DNA of 64,000 bases from an uncultured Candidatus Saccharibacteria bacterium (lineage in GTDB: Bacteria > Patescibacteriota > Minisyncoccia > Phycocordibacterales > UBA1550), in assembly GCA_964642305.1 (NCBI GenBank), contig CAZXOE010000002.1, positions 50,300 to 114,299 of the forward strand. The letters run 5' to 3'. A program made the translations under genes and the position numbers. Below are positions 2,901-55,088 of the stretch, piece by piece (positions within the stretch are counted from its first letter, which is position 1; the number at the start of each line of letters is the position of its first letter). A model generated the notes under the pieces. It did no database searches. It saw nothing but the letters and a program-made list of their open reading frames with translations, and had not been told where the DNA came from.

Positions 2901-2948
2901 TGCCAGAAGCTCGCGCACAAGCTGGTTTTCGGGTAGAATGATGAAATA

Positions 2949-3073
2949 TGAATCCCGTTAGAGGTCGCACAGTTTTTGTAGAATGGTGAGAAACGACTAT
3001 ACTGATAGGTGATACATTATTAATGAATACTAATTAACTACGGAAATTTTTAATAATTTCCTACCTCTAACGG
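2949..3073 (+). mobile_element. MITE-like mini-element copy 1 (TIR CCCGTTAGAGGT...ACCTCTAACGGG), ORF-less
   Basis: 12-bp terminal inverted repeats at 2954-2965 and 3063-3074. 9-bp direct repeats GATGAAATA at 2940-2948 and 3074-3082. The right end abuts the pgi ATG. The ends are homologous to the copies at 20241 and 40210. Confidence 0.5.
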
Positions 3074-3074
3074 G

Positions 3075-4379
3075 ATGAAATACCAGGGACACATAAAAGA
3101 AGGAGAGCATATCACTGTGGACAATGCTCGCGTGGAGGAGTATGTCGCAAAAATGCGTCTTGCAATGAGCGACAAAGCTTATTCAACCCCAGAAGCATCT
3201 CTGAGGTTGCCCTTTGACGAGGAGCTTCTAAAAAAATCAAAAAACCTCGCAAGCAAACTCGCGGGGCCAAAGCTCACGTATATTTTAGATATTGGCATCG
3301 GGGGGTCAAACCTCGGCGCAAGGGCGCTCTATGAAGCAACCGCTGGAACTATGGACGCACACACGCCATTTGCGCCAAAAATGCTTTTTGCGGACACATG
3401 CTCACCGGAGCTTCTTTCAGATATCACGGAGCTTCTCTTGAATGAAATAGGTGACAAAGAAGAAATTATAATTATTGTCGCAAGTAAGTCTGGCACAACG
3501 ACAGAAACAATCACAAATGCATCTGTGCTTGTCAGCGCGCTTGAACAAAAATTCGGATCACTCACGGATCGCATTGTGTGCATTACGGATGAGAAGTCGC
3601 CACTTTGGATTATGGCGGAAGATCAAAAATTCCATTTGCTTCCAGTTCCAAAAAATGTAGGTGGACGTTTTTCTGTTTTCTCGCCAGCCGGAGTGTTTCC
3701 GCTTCTGTGTGCTGGTATCCCTGGAGATGCGCTTATGCGTGGAGCGCAGTCCGTTATTCACGACGCTATTGAGAGAGGAGTAGAAAGTAATTCTTTTAAA
3801 TTCGCAAAAGATATTATTTCATGGCACGAACAAGGTAGAATCGTGTTTGATTTTTTTGCGTTTCACCCAGAGCTTGAGTCTCTTGGAAAATGGTATCGTC
3901 AACTTTTTGCGGAAAGTACAGGGAAAGAAAAAACAATTGACGGCGCGCCTACAACGCACCGCATGGTGCCAACTGTATCCATAGGTTCCACCGACCTCCA
4001 TTCTGTTGAACAAATGAACCTTGCGCAACAGAATATCTCAGCGCGTTTTCTTGTTCGCGCGCATGCTCCGCACTGGGAGCACCAGTTTTTGGCAGAGGAT
4101 AAAGTGTTTGCCCCACTCGTGCCAGGTGTTTCTAGGCGCGCTCCATGTGAAATTCTTGATGCCATTTATAAAGGGGTCACTGAAACATACAAGGAACGAG
4201 GAGTTTCATATGGTGAGATTTTGCTAACTGATCTTGATCCAGAGTCGCTTGGAGCGCTTATGCAGTTTATGATGTGTACCACGATGCATCTTGCAAAACT
4301 GCTTAATATCAATGCATTTGACCAGCCAAACGTAGAGGCATACAAGGAGGCTACGAGGAGGATTTTGAGCGGGAAATAA
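3075..4379 (+). CDS. pgi: glucose-6-phosphate isomerase
   Basis: DIGIGGSNLG motif (the PGI GIGGS signature). 434 aa, PGI-like throughout. Confidence 0.75.
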   Translation: MKYQGHIKEGEHITVDNARVEEYVAKMRLAMSDKAYSTPEASLRLPFDEELLKKSKNLASKLAGPKLTYILDIGIGGSNLGARALYEATAGTMDAHTPFAPKMLFADTCSPELLSDITELLLNEIGDKEEIIIIVASKSGTTTETITNASVLVSALEQKFGSLTDRIVCITDEKSPLWIMAEDQKFHLLPVPKNVGGRFSVFSPAGVFPLLCAGIPGDALMRGAQSVIHDAIERGVESNSFKFAKDIISWHEQGRIVFDFFAFHPELESLGKWYRQLFAESTGKEKTIDGAPTTHRMVPTVSIGSTDLHSVEQMNLAQQNISARFLVRAHAPHWEHQFLAEDKVFAPLVPGVSRRAPCEILDAIYKGVTETYKERGVSYGEILLTDLDPESLGALMQFMMCTTMHLAKLLNINAFDQPNVEAYKEATRRILSGK

Positions 4380-20211: not shown

Positions 20212-20240
20212 TTTTACGCAGTCGTGGTATGCTCATTTTT

Positions 20241-20522
20241 ATGAATCCCGTTAGAGACCCCTCAGTTATGTATTACACCTATGTTATCGAGAACGATAAA
20301 GGTACATGGTATACTGGAAGTACGGGAGACCTACGGAAACGCTTTAGAGAGCACAACGAAGGGCAGGCCAACATGGACAAAAGGTAAAGGTTTGTGGAAG
20401 GTTATTTATTACGAAGCATGTCTTAATGAGCAAGATGCTCGGTCGAGAGGGATGTATTTAAAATCAAGAATGGGTAAGCGCTATCTAAAAAGTAGACTAA
20501 AGCGTTTCCTGTCTCTAATGGG
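20241..20522 (+). mobile_element. TIR mini-element copy 2 carrying a GIY-YIG nuclease ORF (TIR CCCGTTAGAGAC...GTCTCTAATGGG)
   Basis: Left end ATGAATCCCGTTAGAG is identical to the first 16 nt of copy 1. Right TIR at 20511-20522 abuts the argS ATG at 20523. Confidence 0.55.
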
Positions 20523-20526
20523 ATGA
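20268..20526 (+). pseudogene. GIY-YIG nuclease (YhbQ/UPF0213-like), interrupted by a +1 frameshift
   Basis: Frame 0 gives MYYTYVIENDKGTWYTGSTGDLRKRFREHNEGQ, the GIY-YIG core. Frame +1 continues TKGKGLWKVIYYEA...YLKSR. A 1-nt shift lies near 20370. The ORF track splits it into 20199..20387 and 20281..20526. Confidence 0.55.
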
Positions 20527-22241
20527 AAGAGAAACTAGAATCAATAGTTGCAGAGGCGCTCAAAGCGCTTGGAATTGAAACTGCGACTGTTACAATAGAA
20601 CGCCCCGCCGACATGGCGCACGGCGACTATTCCACCAACGCGGCTCTGGTTTACGGAAAGAAAGCAGGCATTCCACCGCGCGAGTTTGCGGAGAAACTAT
20701 TAGAAAAAATACGAGATGCATCACCATATGACATAGCAAAAATTGAAATCGCCGGCGCTGGGTTCGTCAATTTTTTCATGACCGCTGACGCGATAAGGGA
20801 AGAAAATAAAAAAGAAAAATGCTCTCTCGTCACTAGGTATTCAAAAAAGAATATTCTTGTGGAGCATTCTTCCCCAAATATCTTTAAACCGTTTCATATC
20901 GGGCATTTAATGAACAACATTGTTGGTGAGTTTGTCACAAGGGCAACAATAATAGGTGGCGGAAATGTCACGACTATATCTTTTCCATCAGATGTTTCCC
21001 TCGGGATTGCAAAAGCGGTGTTTGTCCTTCTTGAGGACAAAAAAGAAGGCAGAGATGTATTTGCGCTTTCAGATGAAGAAAAAATAACCGCATTTGGCGA
21101 AGCATACCGAAGGGGTGTGGAGTATTTTGACACGCGCCCCGATGAGAATGAAAAGGCAAAAGAGATAGCGCGCATCATTTATGACAAAGACCATTCATCA
21201 GAAACTCGCGCGTTTTTTGAACGCGCAAAAGAAATCAACACCGCATATCTTATAAAAATAATAAAGGAGCTTGGTTCTGTTATAGACGAGATAATTTATG
21301 AATCTGAGGCAGGTGAAATAGGGCAAGAGATTGTAGAGAAAAACACGGGCGAGGGAAAAGTGTTTGCAAAAAGTGAAGGCGCAGTGGTGTATGTCCCTGA
21401 TCCCGCGCGCAAGGATTTGCACACGCAGGTCTTTATCAACAGCGAGGGGCATCCGACATATGAAGCAAAAGATCTCGGCCTCATTGATTTGAAGTTCTCA
21501 AAATTTGCGCCCGATATTTCGTATTTTGTCACCGACACGGAGCAGGCATCGCATTTTAGGGTTGTGCTCGATGCCGCAGGGAAGCTTGGTGGTGTGTGGC
21601 CGTCGCGCGTAGAAAAAAGCATTCACATCCCGCATGGAAGAATGCTTTTCAAGGGGCAAAAAATGTCGAGCCGTCTTGGGGGTGTGCCGATCGCTCTTGA
21701 TGTTGTTGCAGTGGTGGAGGAAGAAGTAAGAGAGAGAGCAGGGGAGAAAATTGCGCACCTCGGTGCTCTAGAGAAAATGAAGCTGGAGCGTGAGATTGCG
21801 CTTTCTTCCCTCCGTGTGGCGGTCCTTCGTTCAAAGCCAGGTATTAATATTAATTTTGACCCCGAAACATCACTCTCGTTTGAAGGGGACTCAGGTCCGT
21901 ATCTTTTGTATACACACGCACGAACCGCGTCGCTTCTTGAAAAAGGGAAAGAAAAAGGATATGAGCCAACGTTTGCATCTGTGCCAGTAACACTTTTAGA
22001 AAGAGAGCTAGCGCAGTATGAGTTTGTTTTAGGGCAGGCGGTCACCGATCTTCATCCACAAAAATTAGTGACGTATCTTTTTGAAGTAGCGCAACTATTT
22101 AATGGTTTTTATGGAAGTACGCAAATCATCACAGAAGATAAAGAAACATCCGAGCATTACCTCGCCATAGTAAAGCGGCTCAAAGCAGTCCTCAAGGAAG
22201 GCCTCTGGGTGCTCGGCATTTCCGCACCGGAGAAGATGTAG
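20523..22241 (+). CDS. argS: arginyl-tRNA synthetase
   Basis: HIGH motif FHIGHLMN. Class-I ArgRS-like over 572 aa. Confidence 0.9.
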   Translation: MKEKLESIVAEALKALGIETATVTIERPADMAHGDYSTNAALVYGKKAGIPPREFAEKLLEKIRDASPYDIAKIEIAGAGFVNFFMTADAIREENKKEKCSLVTRYSKKNILVEHSSPNIFKPFHIGHLMNNIVGEFVTRATIIGGGNVTTISFPSDVSLGIAKAVFVLLEDKKEGRDVFALSDEEKITAFGEAYRRGVEYFDTRPDENEKAKEIARIIYDKDHSSETRAFFERAKEINTAYLIKIIKELGSVIDEIIYESEAGEIGQEIVEKNTGEGKVFAKSEGAVVYVPDPARKDLHTQVFINSEGHPTYEAKDLGLIDLKFSKFAPDISYFVTDTEQASHFRVVLDAAGKLGGVWPSRVEKSIHIPHGRMLFKGQKMSSRLGGVPIALDVVAVVEEEVRERAGEKIAHLGALEKMKLEREIALSSLRVAVLRSKPGININFDPETSLSFEGDSGPYLLYTHARTASLLEKGKEKGYEPTFASVPVTLLERELAQYEFVLGQAVTDLHPQKLVTYLFEVAQLFNGFYGSTQIITEDKETSEHYLAIVKRLKAVLKEGLWVLGISAPEKM

Positions 22242-22269: not shown

Positions 22270-23005
22270 AAAGGGGTCAGGTACCTTTGATTTGTGATAT
22301 AGTCTTAGTATATAATACAAACATGCCACGACTACCACGCGTTGATGTTGGAGGAGAAATTTATCACGTCATTAATCGTGCAAATGCACGGTTGCCAATT
22401 TTTTTTAAAGAAGACGACTATAAACTTTTTGAGACAATTATTGAGGAAGCGCAGATTAAATTTGGTATGAGGATTCTCGCGTATTGTTTTATGCCAAATC
22501 ATTTTCATCTTGTATTACATCCAAACAGTGACGGTGATTTGCAGAAGTTTATGCAATGGCTCACGCTTACTCATACTCAACGCTGGCACACAAAAAATGG
22601 AACGACAGGAACTGGACATCTATATCAAGGACGATACAAGTCTTTTCTTGTCCAAGGCGACAGGCACTTACTTACTATTATTCGCTATGTAGAGAGAAAT
22701 CCACTGCGGGCAAAATTGGTCAAGAAAATTGAAAACTGGAATTTCTCAAGCCTCGCTAGGCGACTTTCTGGCAATCCTAAAAAGAATAAATTACTTGAAA
22801 AGTGGCCGATTGAAATGCCAAAGAATTATCTAGCCTTTGTGAACGAACCTATGAATAAAAATGAAGAAGATGTAATCAGGTACTCTGTTAATAGAAGCAA
22901 GCCTTTTGGATCGGACACATGGAGCAGTAGAATGATCGATAAGCACGGGCTAGAGGCGACGATGCGCAACAGGGGAAGACAAATCAAAGGTACCTGACCC
23001 CTTTG
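22270..23005 (+). mobile_element. IS200-like/RAYT unit bounded by 20-bp inverted repeats (AAAGGGGTCAGGTACCTTTG / CAAAGGTACCTGACCCCTTTG)
   Basis: The IRs at 22270-22289 and 22985-23005 are perfect reverse complements. The right IR overlaps the stop codon. Confidence 0.55.
22323..22997 (+). CDS. IS200/IS605-family Y1 (HUH) transposase, REP-associated tyrosine transposase-like
   Basis: HUH motif MPNHFHLVL and a catalytic Tyr region RYVERNPLRA. The TATATAATACAAAC promoter is fused to the ATG. Confidence 0.7.
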   Translation: MPRLPRVDVGGEIYHVINRANARLPIFFKEDDYKLFETIIEEAQIKFGMRILAYCFMPNHFHLVLHPNSDGDLQKFMQWLTLTHTQRWHTKNGTTGTGHLYQGRYKSFLVQGDRHLLTIIRYVERNPLRAKLVKKIENWNFSSLARRLSGNPKKNKLLEKWPIEMPKNYLAFVNEPMNKNEEDVIRYSVNRSKPFGSDTWSSRMIDKHGLEATMRNRGRQIKGT

Positions 23006-23013
23006 CGACATTA

Positions 23014-23049
23014 CCGCCCCGCATGGCTTGCGATATGCGGGGCTTTTTG
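23014..23049 (+). terminator. intrinsic terminator
   Basis: gccccgcat-ggcttgcgat-atgcggggc followed by TTTTT. Confidence 0.6.
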
Positions 23050-23116: not shown

Positions 23117-23497
23117 ATGAAAGAGAAAACACCAAAAACAAAAGAGAAAGAAAGTGGCATCGACATGCTTGCTCGTATGATGAAGCATGGTTTTGACCGC
23201 GTGGACAAACGGTTTGATGGTGTGGACAAACGGTTTGATGGTGTAGACAAACGTCTAGATGGTGTAGACAAACGTCTAGATGGTGTAGACAAGAGACTCA
23301 ACTCACTGGAGGCTGGGCAAAGCTCTATTGTTCAAGAAGTACTCGCTCTTAATCGTGCCCAAGAAGAAACCAATCGTCGCCTGACCTCAATAGAAAGGAA
23401 GCAGACAGGCATTCTTTCGAGCCTAGACGAGACGGTTACACGAAGTGAGTTTCGGGTGCTTGCAAACAAGGTCGCGGTTTTAGAAAAGAAGCGTTAA
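23117..23497 (+). CDS. small coiled-coil protein with five tandem heptad repeats (DGVDKRF/L)
   Basis: 5 x 21-bp tandem repeats (gatggtgt[ga]gacaaacg...) at 23193-23297. The rest is predicted alpha-helical and charged. Confidence 0.5.
   Translation: MKEKTPKTKEKESGIDMLARMMKHGFDRVDKRFDGVDKRFDGVDKRLDGVDKRLDGVDKRLNSLEAGQSSIVQEVLALNRAQEETNRRLTSIERKQTGILSSLDETVTRSEFRVLANKVAVLEKKR
23193..23297 (+). repeat. 5 x 21-bp tandem repeat (in-frame heptads)
   Basis: Direct reading of the near-identical 21-mers. Confidence 0.8.
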
Positions 23498-29116: not shown

Positions 29117-29185
29117 GGCGTTTCCTATTCTGTCTGTCCTATTACCTATTTACATCTATAGATGTAAATAGGTAATAGGACAGGA
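29117..29185. repeat. palindrome containing CCTATTTACATCTATAGATGTAAATAGG
   Basis: Imperfect ~69-bp palindrome whose 28-bp core recurs at 29779-29808. Confidence 0.6.
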
Positions 29186-29199
29186 AACGCTGGAAGTCT

Positions 29200-29763
29200 T
29201 TAAAGATTAAAATATTTTCGTACCCGAGACTCGTTTTCTATATCGCTAGCAGTAATAAGAAAAATATGTTCTCTCACATTAAAACAATCCCCTAAAAAAT
29301 CAACTTCTTTTTTGCATTCGAACGGTGTTATGAAAACAGATTTTTGGTATGGGTAGCAATTTGCTTTTTTTAACAGTTTATTTAATGCTTGCCTTGAGAA
29401 CTTCTTTTCTTCTGGTATATCAAACATTATTATTCGCCATTTTTTGTCCCACTTTTCGTGTTTATCAGACCTGTCTAATTTTAGATTATTTAGTCGAGCT
29501 TCTTTCCTGCCTTTGTCAGTAAGCGCAACATAAATCTCACCTCCACGATTCTCCATTTTTATTAAACCTTTATTTTTTAAACTTCCTGCTGAGCGTCTTA
29601 TTTTTAGTTTTATTTTCCCATCTTCAATATCAATATATTTGAGCAACTGCGCCAGGTTTGGAAGCGCGAGAATCATAACAAAAGCCCCAGTCGTTAGCAG
29701 AGAGGTTAGGATAATTTTTGAAATCTCACCTTTATCGTATTTTTGTGTATGGCTATTATTCAC
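29200..29763 (-). CDS. PaaX-like protein (winged-helix N-terminus, Cas2-fold C-terminal domain), N-terminal TM
   Basis: KWDKKWRIIMFDIPEEKK...QKSVFITP matches the PaaX C-domain / Cas2-like fold pattern (W.G.W..V.FDIPE....R.....L...G....SV). No cas genes or array nearby. Confidence 0.4.
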   Translation of the reverse strand: MNNSHTQKYDKGEISKIILTSLLTTGAFVMILALPNLAQLLKYIDIEDGKIKLKIRRSAGSLKNKGLIKMENRGGEIYVALTDKGRKEARLNNLKLDRSDKHEKWDKKWRIIMFDIPEEKKFSRQALNKLLKKANCYPYQKSVFITPFECKKEVDFLGDCFNVREHIFLITASDIENESRVRKYFNL

Positions 29764-29778
29764 TGTTAAAAGTATACC

Positions 29779-29808
29779 TATTTACATCTATAGATGTAAA
29801 TAGGTATA
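29779..29808. repeat. 28-bp perfect palindrome CCTATTTACATCTATAGATGTAAATAGG (second copy)
   Basis: Identical core to 29140-29170. The pair brackets the PaaX-like gene. Confidence 0.6.
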
Positions 29809-40188: not shown

Positions 40189-40209
40189 ATTGCAGTCGTG
40201 GTTACTTGT

Positions 40210-40327
40210 CCCGTTAGAGATAACTCAGTTATGTTTTCGGCGATAATGGGATATACTGAGATTACTATTATTAGAAGTTAAATATAATTAAGATAAGGAA
40301 ATTTAATAATTTCCTATCGCTAACGGG
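40210..40327 (+). mobile_element. TIR mini-element copy 3 (CCCGTTAGAGATA...TATCGCTAACGGG), ORF-less deletion derivative
   Basis: Left end shares cccgttagaga..ctcagttatg with copy 2. Right end shares ggaaatttaataatttcctaNNNctaacggg with copy 1. It abuts the metG ATG. Confidence 0.5.
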
Positions 40328-41896
40328 ATGACAGAAAAAAAATTCTACATCACTACGCCTATTTTTTACGCGAATGCGGAGCTCCATTTAGGGCACACAT
40401 ATACGCTTGTTTTGTCAGACGTTTTAGCGCGATATCATCGCTTTGTAGGAGACAATACTTTTTTCCTAACAGGCTCCGATGAGCATGGCGACAAAATTGT
40501 GCGTTCTGCGCAAAAGGAAGGCATGGGGCCTCAGGCGTTTGTAAATATAAATGTCGCAAAAATGGAGGTGCTTATTCAGGAGCTTGGTATATCAAATGAT
40601 CTATTTATTCGCACCTCCGATCAAGAGCATCATTGGTCAGGAGCAAAGAAGCTGTGGCACGCGCTTGAGGAAGCTGGTGATATTTACAGGGGCACATACA
40701 AAGGGCTTTACTGTGTTGGGTGCGAGGCATTCATTACCGAAAAAGAATTAGTGAGTGGCAAATGTCCTTTGCATGACGCTCCACCAGAGCATATTGAAGA
40801 AGAAAATTATTTTTTCAAACTTTCAAAATATGGCCCTGAAATAAAACGATTACTTGAAAGTGGAGAATTAAAAATTACTCCCCATTCACGAGTAAATGAA
40901 ATAGTTTCACTCATCTCTGGTGCGAACGGAGAGAGTGCTTTGGTAGATGTGAGTATCTCTCGCCCAGAGCGCGCGATACCGTGGGGGATACCTGCGCCAA
41001 GTGACCCAACACAGCTAATGTATGTGTGGTGCGACGCGCTTTCAAACTACATTTCTGCTCTTGGCTACGGTACAGACAATGATGAAAATTTCAAAACTTT
41101 TTGGCCAGCGGATATTCAGGTGTTGGGCAAAGACATACTTCGTTTCCACGCGCTCCTTTGGCCAGCATTTTTATTGTCAGCGAAGATTCCGCTACCACGC
41201 GAGCTTTTGGTCCATGGGTTTGTCAATTCAGGAGGGAAGAAGATGTCTAAGTCCTTGGGTAACGTGTTGAGTCCGGGTGAATTTATTTCAGAGTATGGCA
41301 GGGACGCGCTTCGGTATTACCTTACGAGAGAGGTAACTCCCGTGGATGATTGGGATTTAACCCGAGAAAAATTTAAAGAAGTTTACAATGCAAACCTGGC
41401 AAATGGCTTGGGGAACCTTGTATCACGCACTTTAAAAATGGCTGAATCGTATTTTGGAGGAGTGGTAAAAGGTGACGCGACACGTGTACCTCCTATTAAA
41501 ACAAAAATGTCCGATGTGGAAACGTTTGATGAAATTGCAGGTATTAATATTCCATATATTATTACAAATGACATTTTGCCACGTTACCATAAACATATGA
41601 GCGCGAATGAGATAAATAGAGCAGCGGACGTAATTTGGGAGCTCATTGGGCATCTAGATCAATTTGTTACAGATTATGAGCCATTTAAGCTTGTGAAGAC
41701 AGACAAGGAGTCTGCGGAGGCTGTAATTTGGTGTCTTTTGTACGGACTTCGCGAGGTTGGCCAAATGCTTACGCCAATGATGCCAGATACAGCGCAAAGG
41801 ATTATAACGCTTGTTGGCGCATCCGATGTCAAGGCTGATGAAATGGTCTTTAATGCAAAAGCACTCACCGAACCGCTTTTTATGCGCAAAGAGTAG
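40328..41896 (+). CDS. metG: methionyl-tRNA synthetase
   Basis: HIGH motif (ELHLGHTY) and KMSKS. Confidence 0.9.
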   Translation: MTEKKFYITTPIFYANAELHLGHTYTLVLSDVLARYHRFVGDNTFFLTGSDEHGDKIVRSAQKEGMGPQAFVNINVAKMEVLIQELGISNDLFIRTSDQEHHWSGAKKLWHALEEAGDIYRGTYKGLYCVGCEAFITEKELVSGKCPLHDAPPEHIEEENYFFKLSKYGPEIKRLLESGELKITPHSRVNEIVSLISGANGESALVDVSISRPERAIPWGIPAPSDPTQLMYVWCDALSNYISALGYGTDNDENFKTFWPADIQVLGKDILRFHALLWPAFLLSAKIPLPRELLVHGFVNSGGKKMSKSLGNVLSPGEFISEYGRDALRYYLTREVTPVDDWDLTREKFKEVYNANLANGLGNLVSRTLKMAESYFGGVVKGDATRVPPIKTKMSDVETFDEIAGINIPYIITNDILPRYHKHMSANEINRAADVIWELIGHLDQFVTDYEPFKLVKTDKESAEAVIWCLLYGLREVGQMLTPMMPDTAQRIITLVGASDVKADEMVFNAKALTEPLFMRKE

Positions 41897-54434: not shown

Positions 54435-55088
54435 ATGAGGAAGCTCAATTTTTCTATTCATGAATACTACCATCTCTACAGTCGTGGTACCGACAAACGT
54501 ATTATATTTAGCGATGAAGAAGACAAGCAAAGATTTTTACATCTCTTGTATCTCTGTAATACTGACAGCAGTCTAATATTTAGAGAGATACCCATAGGCC
54601 GGGCCTATGAAGAGAGAAAAGGAGATACTTTGGTTAATATTGGAGCATATTGCATGATGCCAAATCACTTCCACCTACTTGTTAGAGAGAAGAAGGATGG
54701 TGGAATCACGAAATTTATGGGTAAATTACTAACATCGTATTCAATGTACTTTAACAAGAAATATAAGCGTACTGGGACTTTGTTTGAGAGTAGATTTAAG
54801 GCAAAGCATGCTAATGATGATAAATACTTGAAGTATTTATTTGCTTATATTCATCTAAACCCAGTTAAGATTATTGATCCAAAATGGAAGGAAAATGGGA
54901 TTAAGGATCGAGATAGTGCTGAGGAATATCTAGAAAGTTATCAATATTCGAGTTACGCGGATTACGTAGGCGACCATCGTAAGGAGAGCAACATCCTTAA
55001 TAAGCGAGTGTTTCCAGAGTATTTTTCAAAGCAGCAGGAATTTAAAGAATTCATAAAAGAGTGGCTATCCTATGGCAATATAGTGTAG
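54435..55088 (+). CDS. IS200-like Y1 (HUH) transposase / REP-associated tyrosine transposase (RAYT)
   Basis: HUH motif MPNHFHLLV and a Tyr region YIHLNPVK. The TATATAATACAAGC promoter is fused to the ATG. The ORF track's upstream extension is discounted. Confidence 0.7.
   Translation: MRKLNFSIHEYYHLYSRGTDKRIIFSDEEDKQRFLHLLYLCNTDSSLIFREIPIGRAYEERKGDTLVNIGAYCMMPNHFHLLVREKKDGGITKFMGKLLTSYSMYFNKKYKRTGTLFESRFKAKHANDDKYLKYLFAYIHLNPVKIIDPKWKENGIKDRDSAEEYLESYQYSSYADYVGDHRKESNILNKRVFPEYFSKQQEFKEFIKEWLSYGNIV

What the first reader, a model, noticed from the sequence alone, without database searches (positions are those of the whole stretch)
22270..23005. Second, divergent RAYT-like transposase bounded by 20-bp inverted repeats and sharing its promoter-ATG fusion with RAYT #2
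AAAGGGGTCAGGTACCTTTG (22270-22289) and CAAAGGTACCTGACCCCTTTG (22985-23005) are reverse complements. The second overlaps the stop codon. The protein (MPNHFHLVL, RYVERNP) is clearly the same family as the 54435 gene but is divergent. Both genes are preceded by the same GTATATAATACAARCATG fusion of a -10 box to the ATG, which indicates leaderless expression. Two distinct RAYT lineages in 64 kb, each with its own hairpin type, is notable.
Basis: seen in the sequence. Interest (0 to 1): 0.5.

Follow-up and report, generated by a model that had tools for sequence, protein, structure and literature searches.

The report
Tyrosine transposase gene with inverted-repeat ends
This is a 735-bp cassette in a Patescibacteria genome: one HUH/tyrosine (IS200-superfamily, RAYT-like) transposase gene bracketed by perfect 26-bp inverted repeats, which matches a little-studied but already described kind called a TIRtron, so it is real and tidy but not new.

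Summary
The inverted repeat is 26 bp and perfect (22270-22295 / 22979-23004). The right arm contains the stop codon and encodes the last residues, K-G-T-stop. The gene (22323-22997, 224 aa) is a Y1/HUH transposase with an intact HUH motif (H60, H62) and catalytic Tyr122. Its best structural match is E. coli TnpA-REP (4ER8).

It is not a canonical REP-associated RAYT, because the GTAG foot is absent. It is not an IS200/IS605 element either. It fits the published TIRYT/TIRtron class (Di Nocera 2013; TnpAY1 subclass 2.1 of Quentin 2018). The repeat carries the class motif GGGGWSAS, here GGGGTCAG.

Homologues from Patescibacteria, Planctomycetes and proteobacterial plasmids share the layout:
- a repeat about 35-60 nt upstream of the ATG;
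- a -10 box exactly 6 nt before the ATG, suggesting a leaderless mRNA;
- a second repeat over or just after the stop codon.

The cassette is single-copy here. It is missing from the same site in the three closest relatives, and its closest homologues sit in other contexts. The 19-nt core also occurs alone or in inverted pairs in at least 91 metagenome stretches.

Verdict: a new member of a known kind, of modest interest.

The parts
22270..22295 (+). Left terminal inverted repeat (26 bp), AAAGGGGTCAGGTACCTTTGATTTGT. The outer 11 nt, AAAGGGGTCAG, are the family-wide motif (GGGGWSAS).
   Evidence: pair I7. The motif is conserved in 22 protein-found loci and in proteobacterial plasmid homologues.
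22270..22288 (+). Weak stem-loop inside the left repeat: stem 22270-22274 / 22284-22288 (AAAGG/CCTTT), 9-nt loop GGTCAGGTA (22275-22283).
   Evidence: Covariation test on 38 distinct arms: 94.3% of cells paired against 84.5% in shuffles (0 of 500 reach it), with one pair split GC 19 / AU 15 / UA 2. The ssDNA fold of the window copy is only -2.3 kcal/mol, z = -0.45.
22287..22316 (+). Sigma-70-like promoter: -35 TTGATT (22287-22292, inside the left repeat), 18-nt spacer, -10 TATAAT (22311-22316). The -10 box ends 6 nt before the ATG.
   Evidence: 10 of 12 consensus matches. The 6-nt spacing is conserved in 20 of the 26 homologues with a -10-like hexamer, of 27 examined.
22323..22997 (+). Y1/HUH tyrosine transposase gene (TIRYT type), 224 aa. 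The start is the ATG at 22323, not the upstream in-frame TTG at 22287.
   Evidence: The N-terminus MPRxPR is conserved in homologues. AF2 model pLDDT 84. Best fold match 4ER8, then ISDra2 and IS608 TnpA.
22500..22508 (+). HUH motif, H60-F61-H62, within PNHFHLVL.
   Evidence: Invariant in 40 aligned homologues. Aligned with the HMH motif of E. coli TnpA-REP.
22686..22688 (+). Putative catalytic tyrosine Y122, in RYVERNP (the Y---NP signature of class 2).
   Evidence: Invariant. Aligned with the catalytic-helix YIYINP of 4ER8. Motif definition from PMC6006769, Table 1.
22965..22994 (+). C-terminal tail RNRGRQIKGT, an AT-hook-like R-G-R-(P/Q)-x-K-G-T. Its last codons are written in the right repeat.
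   Evidence: alignment. Low pLDDT, so probably disordered. The AT-hook reading is inference.
22979..23004 (-). Right terminal inverted repeat (26 bp). It contains the TGA stop codon (22995-22997).
   Evidence: The same overlap is seen in most homologues.
23016..23049 (+). Intrinsic terminator-like hairpin plus T-run, 11 nt outside the right repeat. It is probably the original argS terminator and now also ends the transposase transcript.
20523..22241 (+). argS, the upstream neighbour. The cassette sits between its stop codon and the terminator.
   Evidence: Orthologous loci without the cassette.

Best explanation
It is a TIRtron: a self-contained 735-bp cassette (22270-23004) made of one Y1/HUH single-strand-DNA transposase gene of the TIRYT type and two 26-bp terminal inverted repeats that are the enzyme's own DNA sites.

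**Shown**
- The protein has the TnpA-REP/IS200 fold, with an intact HUH motif and tyrosine.
- The repeats, and above all their outer motif AAAGGGGWCAG, are conserved with the protein from Patescibacteria to Proteobacteria. They are more conserved than the coding sequence.
- DNA homology between cassettes starts and stops exactly at the outer ends of the repeats.
- The cassette is single-copy. It is absent from the orthologous argS site in the three nearest relatives. Its closest homologues lie in unrelated contexts.
- The same 19-nt core occurs alone, in inverted pairs and in tandem stacks in many metagenome contigs that carry no such gene nearby.

**Inferred**
- The enzyme binds each repeat. 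In this clade it probably binds a small stem-loop with the conserved loop GGTCAGGTA on single-stranded DNA, as TnpA-REP and IS608 TnpA do.
- It nicks with Tyr122, forming a 5'-phosphotyrosine link, and rejoins strands.
- This occasionally relocates the whole cassette and, more often, seeds gene-less repeat copies, analogous to REP/REPIN satellites.
- Transcription starts at or next to the A of the ATG, giving a leaderless mRNA from a promoter whose -35 lies inside the left repeat. Enzyme bound there would probably repress its own gene.
For: - **Fold and motifs:**
- **Repeat is real and 26 bp:**
- **Same layout in 22 genome loci found by protein similarity alone:**
- **Repeats 100% conserved while coding is about 80% identical and flanks are unrelated:**
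- **Class motif GGGGWSAS and the published description of TIRtrons**, including repeats that overlap the gene's 3' end and occur as single, dimeric or grouped copies: PMC3733652; PMC6006769.
- **Proteobacterial plasmid homologues at about 30% identity have AAAGGGGACAG... or AAAAGGGGTCAG... repeats in the same positions:**
- **Different contexts at 89%, 85% and 78% identity:**. No synteny among 23 loci.
- **Cassette and repeat absent at the syntenic argS site of the three nearest relatives:**
- **Gene-less copies:** at least 120 metagenome stretches hold the exact 19-mer, and 91 of them have no homologue in the fetched locus.
- **Stem covariation:**
- **-10 box 6 nt from the ATG in 20 of the 26 homologues with such a hexamer, of 27 examined:**. 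Promoter scan.
Against: - No biochemical or population evidence of cutting or movement was obtained. No precise empty site was found, and the relatives are too diverged to define a target site.
- No other repeat copy lies in this 64-kb window, or within +/-4 kb of 22 homologous cassettes beyond the copies stacked within about 160 nt of the gene ends. Satellite production in this genome is therefore unproven.
- The stem-loop is thermodynamically weak in the window copy.
- The hairpin register is not conserved in the proteobacterial homologues. Recognition could be of the sequence or duplex rather than of a hairpin.
- The covariation may rest on few independent events (caveats).
- Subclass 2.1 members are described as carrying an HTH-like C-terminal domain. 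No Pfam HTH was detected in the 90 C-terminal residues.
Confidence: 0.78

Rival explanations
1. Domesticated, immobile host gene. The Y1 protein serves a cellular single-strand-DNA function, and the two repeats are only regulatory sites: an operator over the -35 at the left and a 3' element at the right.
For: - Single copy in the window and one close copy per species genome in the scan.
- Very strong protein conservation, with length fixed at 224 aa and 65-89% identity over many lineages.
- The left repeat overlaps the -35.
- RAYT groups in general look like housekeeping genes in their genomic distribution (PMC5581495).
Against: - The cassette is absent from the syntenic site in the three nearest relatives.
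- It lies in a different context in every homologue, even at 89% identity.
- The identical core exists as gene-less singles, inverted pairs and stacks in contigs of 30-73% GC.
- Group 1 (subclass 2.1) is, with Group 6, one of the two RAYT groups that most resemble insertion sequences, with duplicates and plasmid copies.
- Homologues occur on plasmids.
Confidence: 0.12
2. Canonical REPtron: a RAYT (TnpA-REP) flanked by members of a genome-wide GTAG-tagged REP/REPIN population.
For: - The best sequence and fold match is E. coli TnpA-REP 4ER8.
- The top NCBIfam hit is REP_Tyr_transpos.
- Inverted flanking copies and REPIN-like doublets exist elsewhere.
Against: - No conserved GT[AG]G foot at the repeats.
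- The NCBIfam score of 72 is below the cut-off of 80.
- No dispersed copies in 64 kb.
- The HuH and Y motifs (NHFH, YVERNP) match subclass 2.1, not subclass 2.2 (DHLH, YIHYNP).
- The protein is 224 aa with an 85-aa C-terminal extension, against 165 aa for TnpA-REP.
Confidence: 0.06
3. An IS200/IS605-type insertion sequence that moves by single-strand excision, using subterminal hairpins on one strand.
For: - Same protein superfamily and fold.
- Size of about 0.7 kb, like IS200.
Against: - NCBIfam transpos_IS200 scores 18 bits against a cut-off of 55.
- The Y motif is Y---NP, not Y---Q.
- The ends are inverted, not direct, copies.
- There is no tnpB, and the element is single-copy.
Confidence: 0.03
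4. The inverted repeat is a chance or assembly artefact.
For: None found.
Against: - Zero matches expected in shuffles.
- The same sequence appears in 8 independent metagenome contigs.
- The layout is conserved in more than 20 other genomes.
Confidence: 0.01

Closest known systems
TIRtron / TIRYT (TIR-associated tyrosine transposase; Di Nocera, De Gregorio & Rocco 2013, PMC3733652). Equated with TnpAY1 subclass 2.1 (Quentin et al. 2018, PMC6006769) and Bertels RAYT Group 1 (PMC5581495).
   Same: - A RAYT-like Y1 gene flanked by long terminal inverted repeats rather than REPs.
- The repeat carries GGGGWSAS (here GGGGTCAG).
- The repeats lie at a fixed short distance from the gene and overlap its 3' end.
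- Repeat copies also occur as singles, dimers and groups.
- HuH motif NH[YF]H, Y---NP signature, length about 230 aa, low copy number.
- Plasmid-borne proteobacterial relatives have the same layout.
   Different: - The host is Patescibacteria (CPR), which does not appear in the parts of those surveys read here.
- No Pfam HTH (Bac_DnaA_C, HTH_23/28) was detected in the C-terminal extension.
- In this clade the repeat core has a covarying 5-6-bp stem with an invariant 9-nt loop. It is identical over 19 nt down to 46% protein identity.
- The leaderless promoter layout is conserved.
E. coli TnpA-REP (RAYT) and its REPtron; structure 4ER8 (Messing et al. 2012, PMC3479197).
   Same: - Best sequence match (E=0.001) and best fold match (TM 0.77 on the target, rmsd 2.3 A).
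- The HUH motif and catalytic Tyr align.
- Single-copy gene flanked by inverted copies of its DNA site.
   Different: - No GTAG guide tetranucleotide.
- A short weak stem instead of a long REP hairpin.
- An extra 85-aa C-terminal region.
- No REP population seen in the 64 kb available.
IS200/IS605 family (IS608, ISDra2 TnpA).
   Same: HUH/Y1 fold. The probable chemistry is a single-strand nick with a 5'-phosphotyrosine intermediate (established for that family, inferred here).
   Different: - The ends are inverted repeats, not same-strand subterminal hairpins.
- The Y motif is Y---NP, not Y---Q.
- It is not multi-copy and has no tnpB.
REPIN-RAYT systems of Pseudomonas and Enterobacteria (Bertels & Rainey 2011, PMC3116915).
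   Same: A single-copy enzyme gene, plus gene-less inverted doublets of its flanking repeat with conserved spacers. Examples are L098/L111 and L189/L202.
   Different: - The doublets were seen in other organisms' contigs, not in this window.
- The abundance is unknown.
- The repeat sequence is conserved across phyla rather than being lineage-specific.

Membership tests
TIRYT / TIRtron (TnpAY1 subclass 2.1) | Y1 transposase gene flanked by long terminal inverted repeats instead of GTAG REPs. | tested here: met
   26-bp perfect inverted repeat at 22270-22295 / 22979-23004. Definition in PMC3733652.
TIRYT / TIRtron (TnpAY1 subclass 2.1) | Repeat carries the shared motif GGGGWSAS. | tested here: met
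   GGGGTCAG at 22273-22280. The motif is conserved in 22 homologous loci and in the P. aeruginosa (GGGGACAG) and R. rubrum (GGGGTCAG) plasmid homologues.
TIRYT / TIRtron (TnpAY1 subclass 2.1) | HuH motif NH[YF]H and Y motif of the Y[IV]E/H-x-NP type, with median length about 238 aa. | tested here: met
   N59-H-F-H62 and Y122-V-E-R-N-P, 224 aa, against Table 1 of PMC6006769. The Y motif differs at one position from the printed consensus YIELNP.
TIRYT / TIRtron (TnpAY1 subclass 2.1) | C-terminal extension with similarity to helix-turn-helix domains (Bac_DnaA_C, HTH_23, HTH_28). | tested here: inconclusive
   An 85-aa, mostly helical extension is present. No Pfam family is detected at E<=1.
TIRYT / TIRtron (TnpAY1 subclass 2.1) | Low copy number per genome. 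| tested here: met
   One copy in the 64 kb. One context in 8 contigs. One close copy per species genome in the scan. The complete genome was not available.
Canonical RAYT / REPtron (TnpA-REP) | Flanking REPs: a hairpin with a 5' GT[AG]G tetranucleotide at its foot. | tested here: not met
   No conserved GTAG or GTGG next to the repeats in the window or in homologues.
Canonical RAYT / REPtron (TnpA-REP) | NCBIfam equivalog model REP_Tyr_transpos reaches its cut-off. | tested here: not met
   72 bits against a cut-off of 80.
Canonical RAYT / REPtron (TnpA-REP) | Many dispersed extragenic copies of the flanking repeat in the same genome. | tested here: inconclusive
   None in the 64-kb window, and none beyond the copies stacked within about 160 nt of the gene ends in the +/-4 kb around 22 homologous cassettes. 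Gene-less copies are frequent in metagenome contigs. The whole genome was not available.
IS200/IS605 insertion sequences | TnpA_IS200 signature (Y---Q, about 150 aa; the NCBIfam IS200 model). | tested here: not met
   18 bits against a cut-off of 55. The Y motif is Y---NP.
IS200/IS605 insertion sequences | Subterminal hairpins on the same strand at both ends, no terminal inverted repeats, usually multi-copy, often with tnpB. | tested here: not met
   The ends are inverted copies. The element is single-copy, and its neighbours are argS and a coiled-coil gene.
HUH / Y1 endonuclease superfamily | RRM-like fold with the HUH motif on a beta-strand and the catalytic Tyr on a following helix. | tested here: met
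   Pfam Y1_Tnp E=4e-18. AF2 model pLDDT 84. Foldseek top hits are 4ER8, ISDra2, IS608 and IS200 TnpA. Both motifs are invariant in 40 homologues.
Leaderless gene | -10 box 5-8 nt upstream of the start codon, with no Shine-Dalgarno sequence. | tested here: met
   TATAAT ends 6 nt before the ATG and there is no SD. The same spacing is seen in 20 of the 26 homologues with a -10-like hexamer, of 27 examined.
Leaderless gene | The transcript's 5' end maps to the start codon. | not testable with these tools
   Needs 5'-end mapping (dRNA-seq, 5'-RACE or a metatranscriptome).

The most novel reading that the evidence does not exclude
The Patescibacteria/Planctomycetes TIRtrons may be an active, horizontally spreading family of minimal (about 0.73 kb) autonomous elements with a transposition route not yet described for Y1 enzymes.
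- An 11-nt outer motif, AAAGGGGWCAG, conserved from CPR bacteria to Proteobacteria, would be the universal recognition or nicking site. Stacks of just this half-site on the outer side of full copies would be the footprints of repeated nick-and-join events.
- The element would write the AT-hook-like tail of its own enzyme into its right end, so that the DNA site and the peptide that reads it are the same stretch of sequence.
Probability: 0.2. Interest if true: 0.55.

Novelty: new member of a known kind. Interest (0 to 1): 0.3.

Why it matters
TIRYTs are the largest and least understood branch of the RAYT-like Y1 enzymes, and no member has been studied biochemically. This family has properties that would make it a good model for working out how a Y1 enzyme handles inverted ends:
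- The cassette is very compact.
- The ends are sharply defined.
- The DNA site is nearly invariant across phyla.
- The promoter layout is conserved.

It also shows that streamlined CPR genomes carry, and probably exchange, such cassettes. For genome annotation it explains a recurrent 'transposase' gene in Patescibacteria and the short AAAGGGGTCAGGTACCTTT repeats seen in many metagenomes.

Tried and rejected
- **Empty site in near-identical strains.** An exact flank-to-flank DNA pattern scanned against metagenome contigs gave 0 hits. The question was then answered only at the level of diverged relatives.
- **Synteny among 23 homologous loci.** None was found, apart from an argS-like gene near L010. 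That ArgRS is only 25% identical to the window's, so it is probably a different ArgRS type and unusable as a rate yardstick.
- **Housekeeping yardstick.** I compared housekeeping genes next to the 78-89% homologues with the window to ask whether the transposase is anomalously conserved. No shared orthologues lie in the 64 kb.
- **Rfam on the whole window.** No family matched, so no known RNA element explains the hairpin.
- **Pfam on the C-terminal 90 aa.** Nothing was detected.
- **A third Y1 gene.** A weak tblastn hit at 2693-2854 turned out to be a DsbA-like thioredoxin gene.
- **Literature search for the repeat sequence itself.** Only an unrelated primer turned up, and the TIRYT paper's supplements hold nothing. 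No paper links leaderless genes, Shine-Dalgarno use and Patescibacteria.
- **The palindrome AGGTACCT as a duplex dimer site.** Rejected, because homologues break that palindrome (GGTACTC, GGAACC) while keeping the stem complementary.
Full report
**1. The observation**

- The repeat continues inward for six more bases. The true arms are 22270-22295 (AAAGGGGTCAGGTACCTTTGATTTGT) and 22979-23004, 26 nt and 100% complementary, with 683 nt between them (pair I7).
- No match to the 20-mer is expected by chance, even with three mismatches allowed (0 of 100 shuffles).
- The TGA stop (22995-22997) lies inside the right arm, which therefore also encodes the last residues, I-K-G-T.
- The 18-mer GTATATAATACAARCATG occurs exactly twice, each time ending on the ATG of a Y1 gene.
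- The two Y1 proteins are 26% identical.

**2. The protein**

The ORF 22323-22997 (224 aa) matches Pfam Y1_Tnp (E=4e-18).
- Its best NCBIfam hit is the RAYT model, but it scores below that model's cut-off (72 against 80 bits). The IS200 model scores far below its own cut-off (18 against 55).
- The closest solved structure by sequence is E. coli TnpA-REP, 4ER8, with the HUH motif and the catalytic-helix tyrosine aligned.
- An AlphaFold model built on 36 homologues is confident (pLDDT 84, pTM 0.85). Its best fold match is again 4ER8 (TM 0.77 on the target, rmsd 2.3 A), followed by ISDra2, IS608 and IS200 TnpA.
- H60, H62 and Y122 (in RYVERNP) are invariant in 40 homologues.
- The start is the ATG at 22323, because the N-terminus MPRxPR is conserved. 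The in-frame TTG at 22287 is not the start.
- An 85-aa helical C-terminal extension has no Pfam match.
- The protein ends in a disordered R-x-R-G-R-(P/Q)-x-K-G-T tail that looks like an AT-hook. This last reading is inference.

**3. The family and its layout**

The protein has more than 7,000 close homologues, almost all 224 aa long and mostly from Patescibacteria. The search of the 50%-identity representative library gives 549 representatives at E<=1e-30.

A scan of one genome per species by protein similarity alone returned 22 close loci from Parcubacteria-type lineages, NPL-UPA2 and Planctomycetota. Most of the Patescibacteria-type loci show the same arrangement:
- a copy of AAAGG-GGTCAGGTA-CCTTT about 35-60 nt upstream of the ATG;
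- an inverted copy over the stop codon, so that K-G-T-stop is written in the repeat.

The exceptions are the three Planctomycetota loci, which carry variant repeats, and three truncated or masked loci where one end is not visible or sits further out.

Some loci carry extra tandem copies outside either end (L013, L017, L018, L009).

In an alignment of five cassettes whose proteins are 78-89% identical to the window's, DNA homology begins and ends exactly at the outer ends of the repeats. The repeats are 100% conserved, the coding region is about 80% identical, and the flanks are unrelated.

The 19-nt core is still identical in homologues only 46-55% identical in protein.

**4. Is the repeat a hairpin?**

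I tested the stem on 38 distinct arms taken from loci found by protein similarity, so the set is unbiased for DNA sequence.
- A 6-bp stem around the invariant 9-nt loop is paired in 94.3% of cells, against 84.5% in shuffles (0 of 500 reach it) and at most 82% in slid controls.
- One pair switches among G-C (19), A-T (15) and T-A (2).

Three points weaken the case:
- The window copy is weak as single-stranded DNA (-2.3 kcal/mol, z = -0.45).
- The covariation may rest on few independent events.
- In distant proteobacterial homologues the possible pairing is in another register.

I therefore treat the stem-loop as moderately supported for this clade. The family-wide constant is the outer motif AAAGGGGWCAG.

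**5. What is known**

Di Nocera et al. 2013 (PMC3733652) described RAYT-like genes flanked not by GTAG REPs but by long terminal inverted repeats.
- Many of those repeats share GGGGWSAS and lie at similar distances from the gene.
- Some overlap the gene's 3' end.
- Some belong to moderately abundant families of single, dimeric or grouped copies.
- The authors named the genes TIRYTs and the units TIRtrons.

Quentin et al. 2018 (PMC6006769) place most TIRYTs in TnpAY1 subclass 2.1, which equals Bertels Group 1. Its features are NH[YF]H, Y---NP, a median length of 238 aa and no REPs.

Bertels et al. 2017 (PMC5581495) name Group 1, together with Group 6, as the RAYT groups that most resemble insertion sequences.

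The window element has GGGGTCAG, NHFH and YVERNP, so it fits this class.

As a direct test, I examined plasmid-borne proteobacterial homologues at about 30% identity. They have the same layout:
- P. aeruginosa NZ_CP116719 has a 32-bp repeat starting AAAGGGGACAG, which overlaps the stop codon.
- R. rubrum NC_007641 has a 19-bp repeat, TTAAAAGGGGTCAGACCCC, 37 nt before the ATG and just after the stop codon.

**6. Is it mobile?**

The exact protein occurs in 8 metagenome contigs, always between argS and the coiled-coil gene. So it is single-copy and fixed in this population.

Several results point to movement over evolutionary time:
- Homologues at 89%, 85% and 78% identity sit after msrB, after secF plus an unknown gene, and after a PBP gene.
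- There is no synteny among 23 loci.
- Four of 22 loci lie right after tRNA genes.
- The three closest ArgRS relatives (76-78% identity) keep the neighbourhood, with the nucleotide-metabolism genes and argS followed by the coiled-coil gene and giant surface protein, by the giant surface protein directly, or by ileS. They have no Y1 gene and no repeat core there.

The cassette therefore entered this site in this lineage, or was lost from all three relatives. It sits between the argS stop codon and a terminator 11 nt beyond the right repeat.

A precise empty site was not found, so the target-site rules remain unknown.

**7. Gene-less copies**

- Only 29 of these have a homologue in the fetched locus.
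- The other 91 hold single copies, inverted pairs with 9-60-nt spacers (some spacers are conserved between contigs, as in L098/L111 and L189/L202), or tandem copies.
- These stretches range from 30 to 73% GC.

This parallels REP/REPIN satellites of RAYTs.

In this window there are no further copies. Within +/-4 kb of the 22 homologous cassettes there are none beyond the copies stacked within about 160 nt of the gene ends.

Partial copies made of only the outer half (GGGGTCAG not followed by GTACC) pile up on the outer side of full copies: 25 upstream against 6 downstream among 151 full-length copies of the 19-mer. This may mark extra binding sites or the nick-and-join point. It is unexplained.

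**8. Expression**

A sigma-70-like promoter is predicted with -35 TTGATT inside the left repeat, an 18-nt spacer and -10 TATAAT ending 6 nt before the ATG.
- A -10-like hexamer exactly 6 nt before the ATG is found in 20 of the 26 family members that have such a hexamer (27 were examined), including high-GC Planctomycetota. The R. rubrum plasmid copy has it at 7 nt.
- The P. aeruginosa copy uses a Shine-Dalgarno sequence instead.
- A leaderless mRNA is therefore a family trait.

It is also a habit of this genome:
- In 46 genes, -10-like hexamers peak 12-13 nt before the start codon, and SD-like motifs are weak.
- TATAATACAA occurs four times upstream of genes, two of them unrelated to transposases.

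The shared promoter string therefore does not tie the two Y1 genes together.

**9. The other Y1 gene**

The 54435 gene (NHFH, YIHLNP) is flanked by a 37-nt perfect palindrome on both sides. Its homologues at 47-55% identity are mostly flanked (four of the six examined by clear pairs of 17-27 nt) by their own, quite different palindromes. This contrasts with the near-invariant repeat of the 22323 family.

**10. Verdict**

This is a real, cleanly delimited TIRtron in a Paceibacteria/Yonathbacteria-like genome.
- **Most likely mechanism:** the Y1 enzyme binds the repeats, nicks through Tyr122 and rejoins strands. This rarely moves the cassette and elsewhere spawns gene-less copies. Expression is leaderless and probably self-repressed through the left repeat.
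- **Shown:** the anatomy, the conservation, the fold, the presence/absence polymorphism and the existence of gene-less copies.
- **Inferred:** binding, cleavage, movement and the transcript start.
- **Novelty:** a new member of a known kind.
- **Interest:** modest (0.3).

Noticed in passing
window 2947-3078, 20240-20526, 40203-40331: There are three copies of a short element bounded by the inverted repeat (A)TCCCGTTAGAG...CTCTAACGGGAT. Its right end overlaps the ATG of the downstream gene (a PGI-like gene at 3075, argS at 20523, metG at 40328). The argS copy (about 290 bp) holds a 52-aa GIY-YIG remnant; the other two are MITE-like versions of about 130 bp.
   Followed up: partly
window 29134-29806: A PaaX_M/Cas2-like winged-helix gene (29200-29763, minus strand) is flanked on both sides by the same 32-nt perfect palindrome, TACCTATTTACATCTATAGATGTAAATAGGTA. 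The left copy extends to 50 nt. The gene also has a TATACT box 7 nt before its GTG start.
   Followed up: partly
window 54591-54610: The second Y1 gene carries, inside its coding region, a 13-16-nt piece (ATAGGCCGGGCCTAT) of its own flanking palindrome. The piece lies in a 20-aa insertion relative to the 22323 protein. This is reminiscent of the REP insertions inside tnpA genes described for subclass 2.4.
   Followed up: no
window, whole; for example 7126, 29763, 34143, 37825, 61959: -10-like hexamers peak 12-13 nt before start codons, and Shine-Dalgarno motifs are weak. About a fifth of genes in this genome look leaderless. TATAATACAA recurs four times upstream of genes.
   Followed up: partly
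L097, L099, L109, L118, L150, L168, L181, L182; also L012, L013, L014, L016 and L089 next to the gene: Partial copies made of only the outer half of the repeat (AAAGGGGTCAG) stack in the same orientation on the outer side of full copies: 25 against 6 among 151 full-length copies of the 19-mer. The junction always falls after ...TCAG.
   Followed up: partly
L011, L019, L021, L024 (and probably L020): Four of 22 homologous cassettes lie 16-165 nt downstream of a tRNA gene (Gln, Ala). This is more than expected if positions were random.
   Followed up: no
L013 2511-2640; L023 2285-3038; L009 about 3920-4000: There are local duplications that include a repeat plus the adjoining gene end. L013 repeats the last 40 nt of the gene after three extra repeat copies. 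L023 has a second left repeat 121 nt inside the gene. L009 has a duplicated left end.
   Followed up: no
window 23192-23296: There are four to five tandem 21-nt repeats inside the coiled-coil gene downstream. They encode reiterated (F/L)DGVDKR heptads, and the orthologue in L212 has fewer.
   Followed up: no
window 20523-22241 against the protein database: The closest ArgRS in the database is 78% identical, while the closest homologue of the transposase is 89% identical. This hints that the cassette is shared more recently than the host genomes diverged, but it could also reflect sampling or slower evolution.
   Followed up: partly
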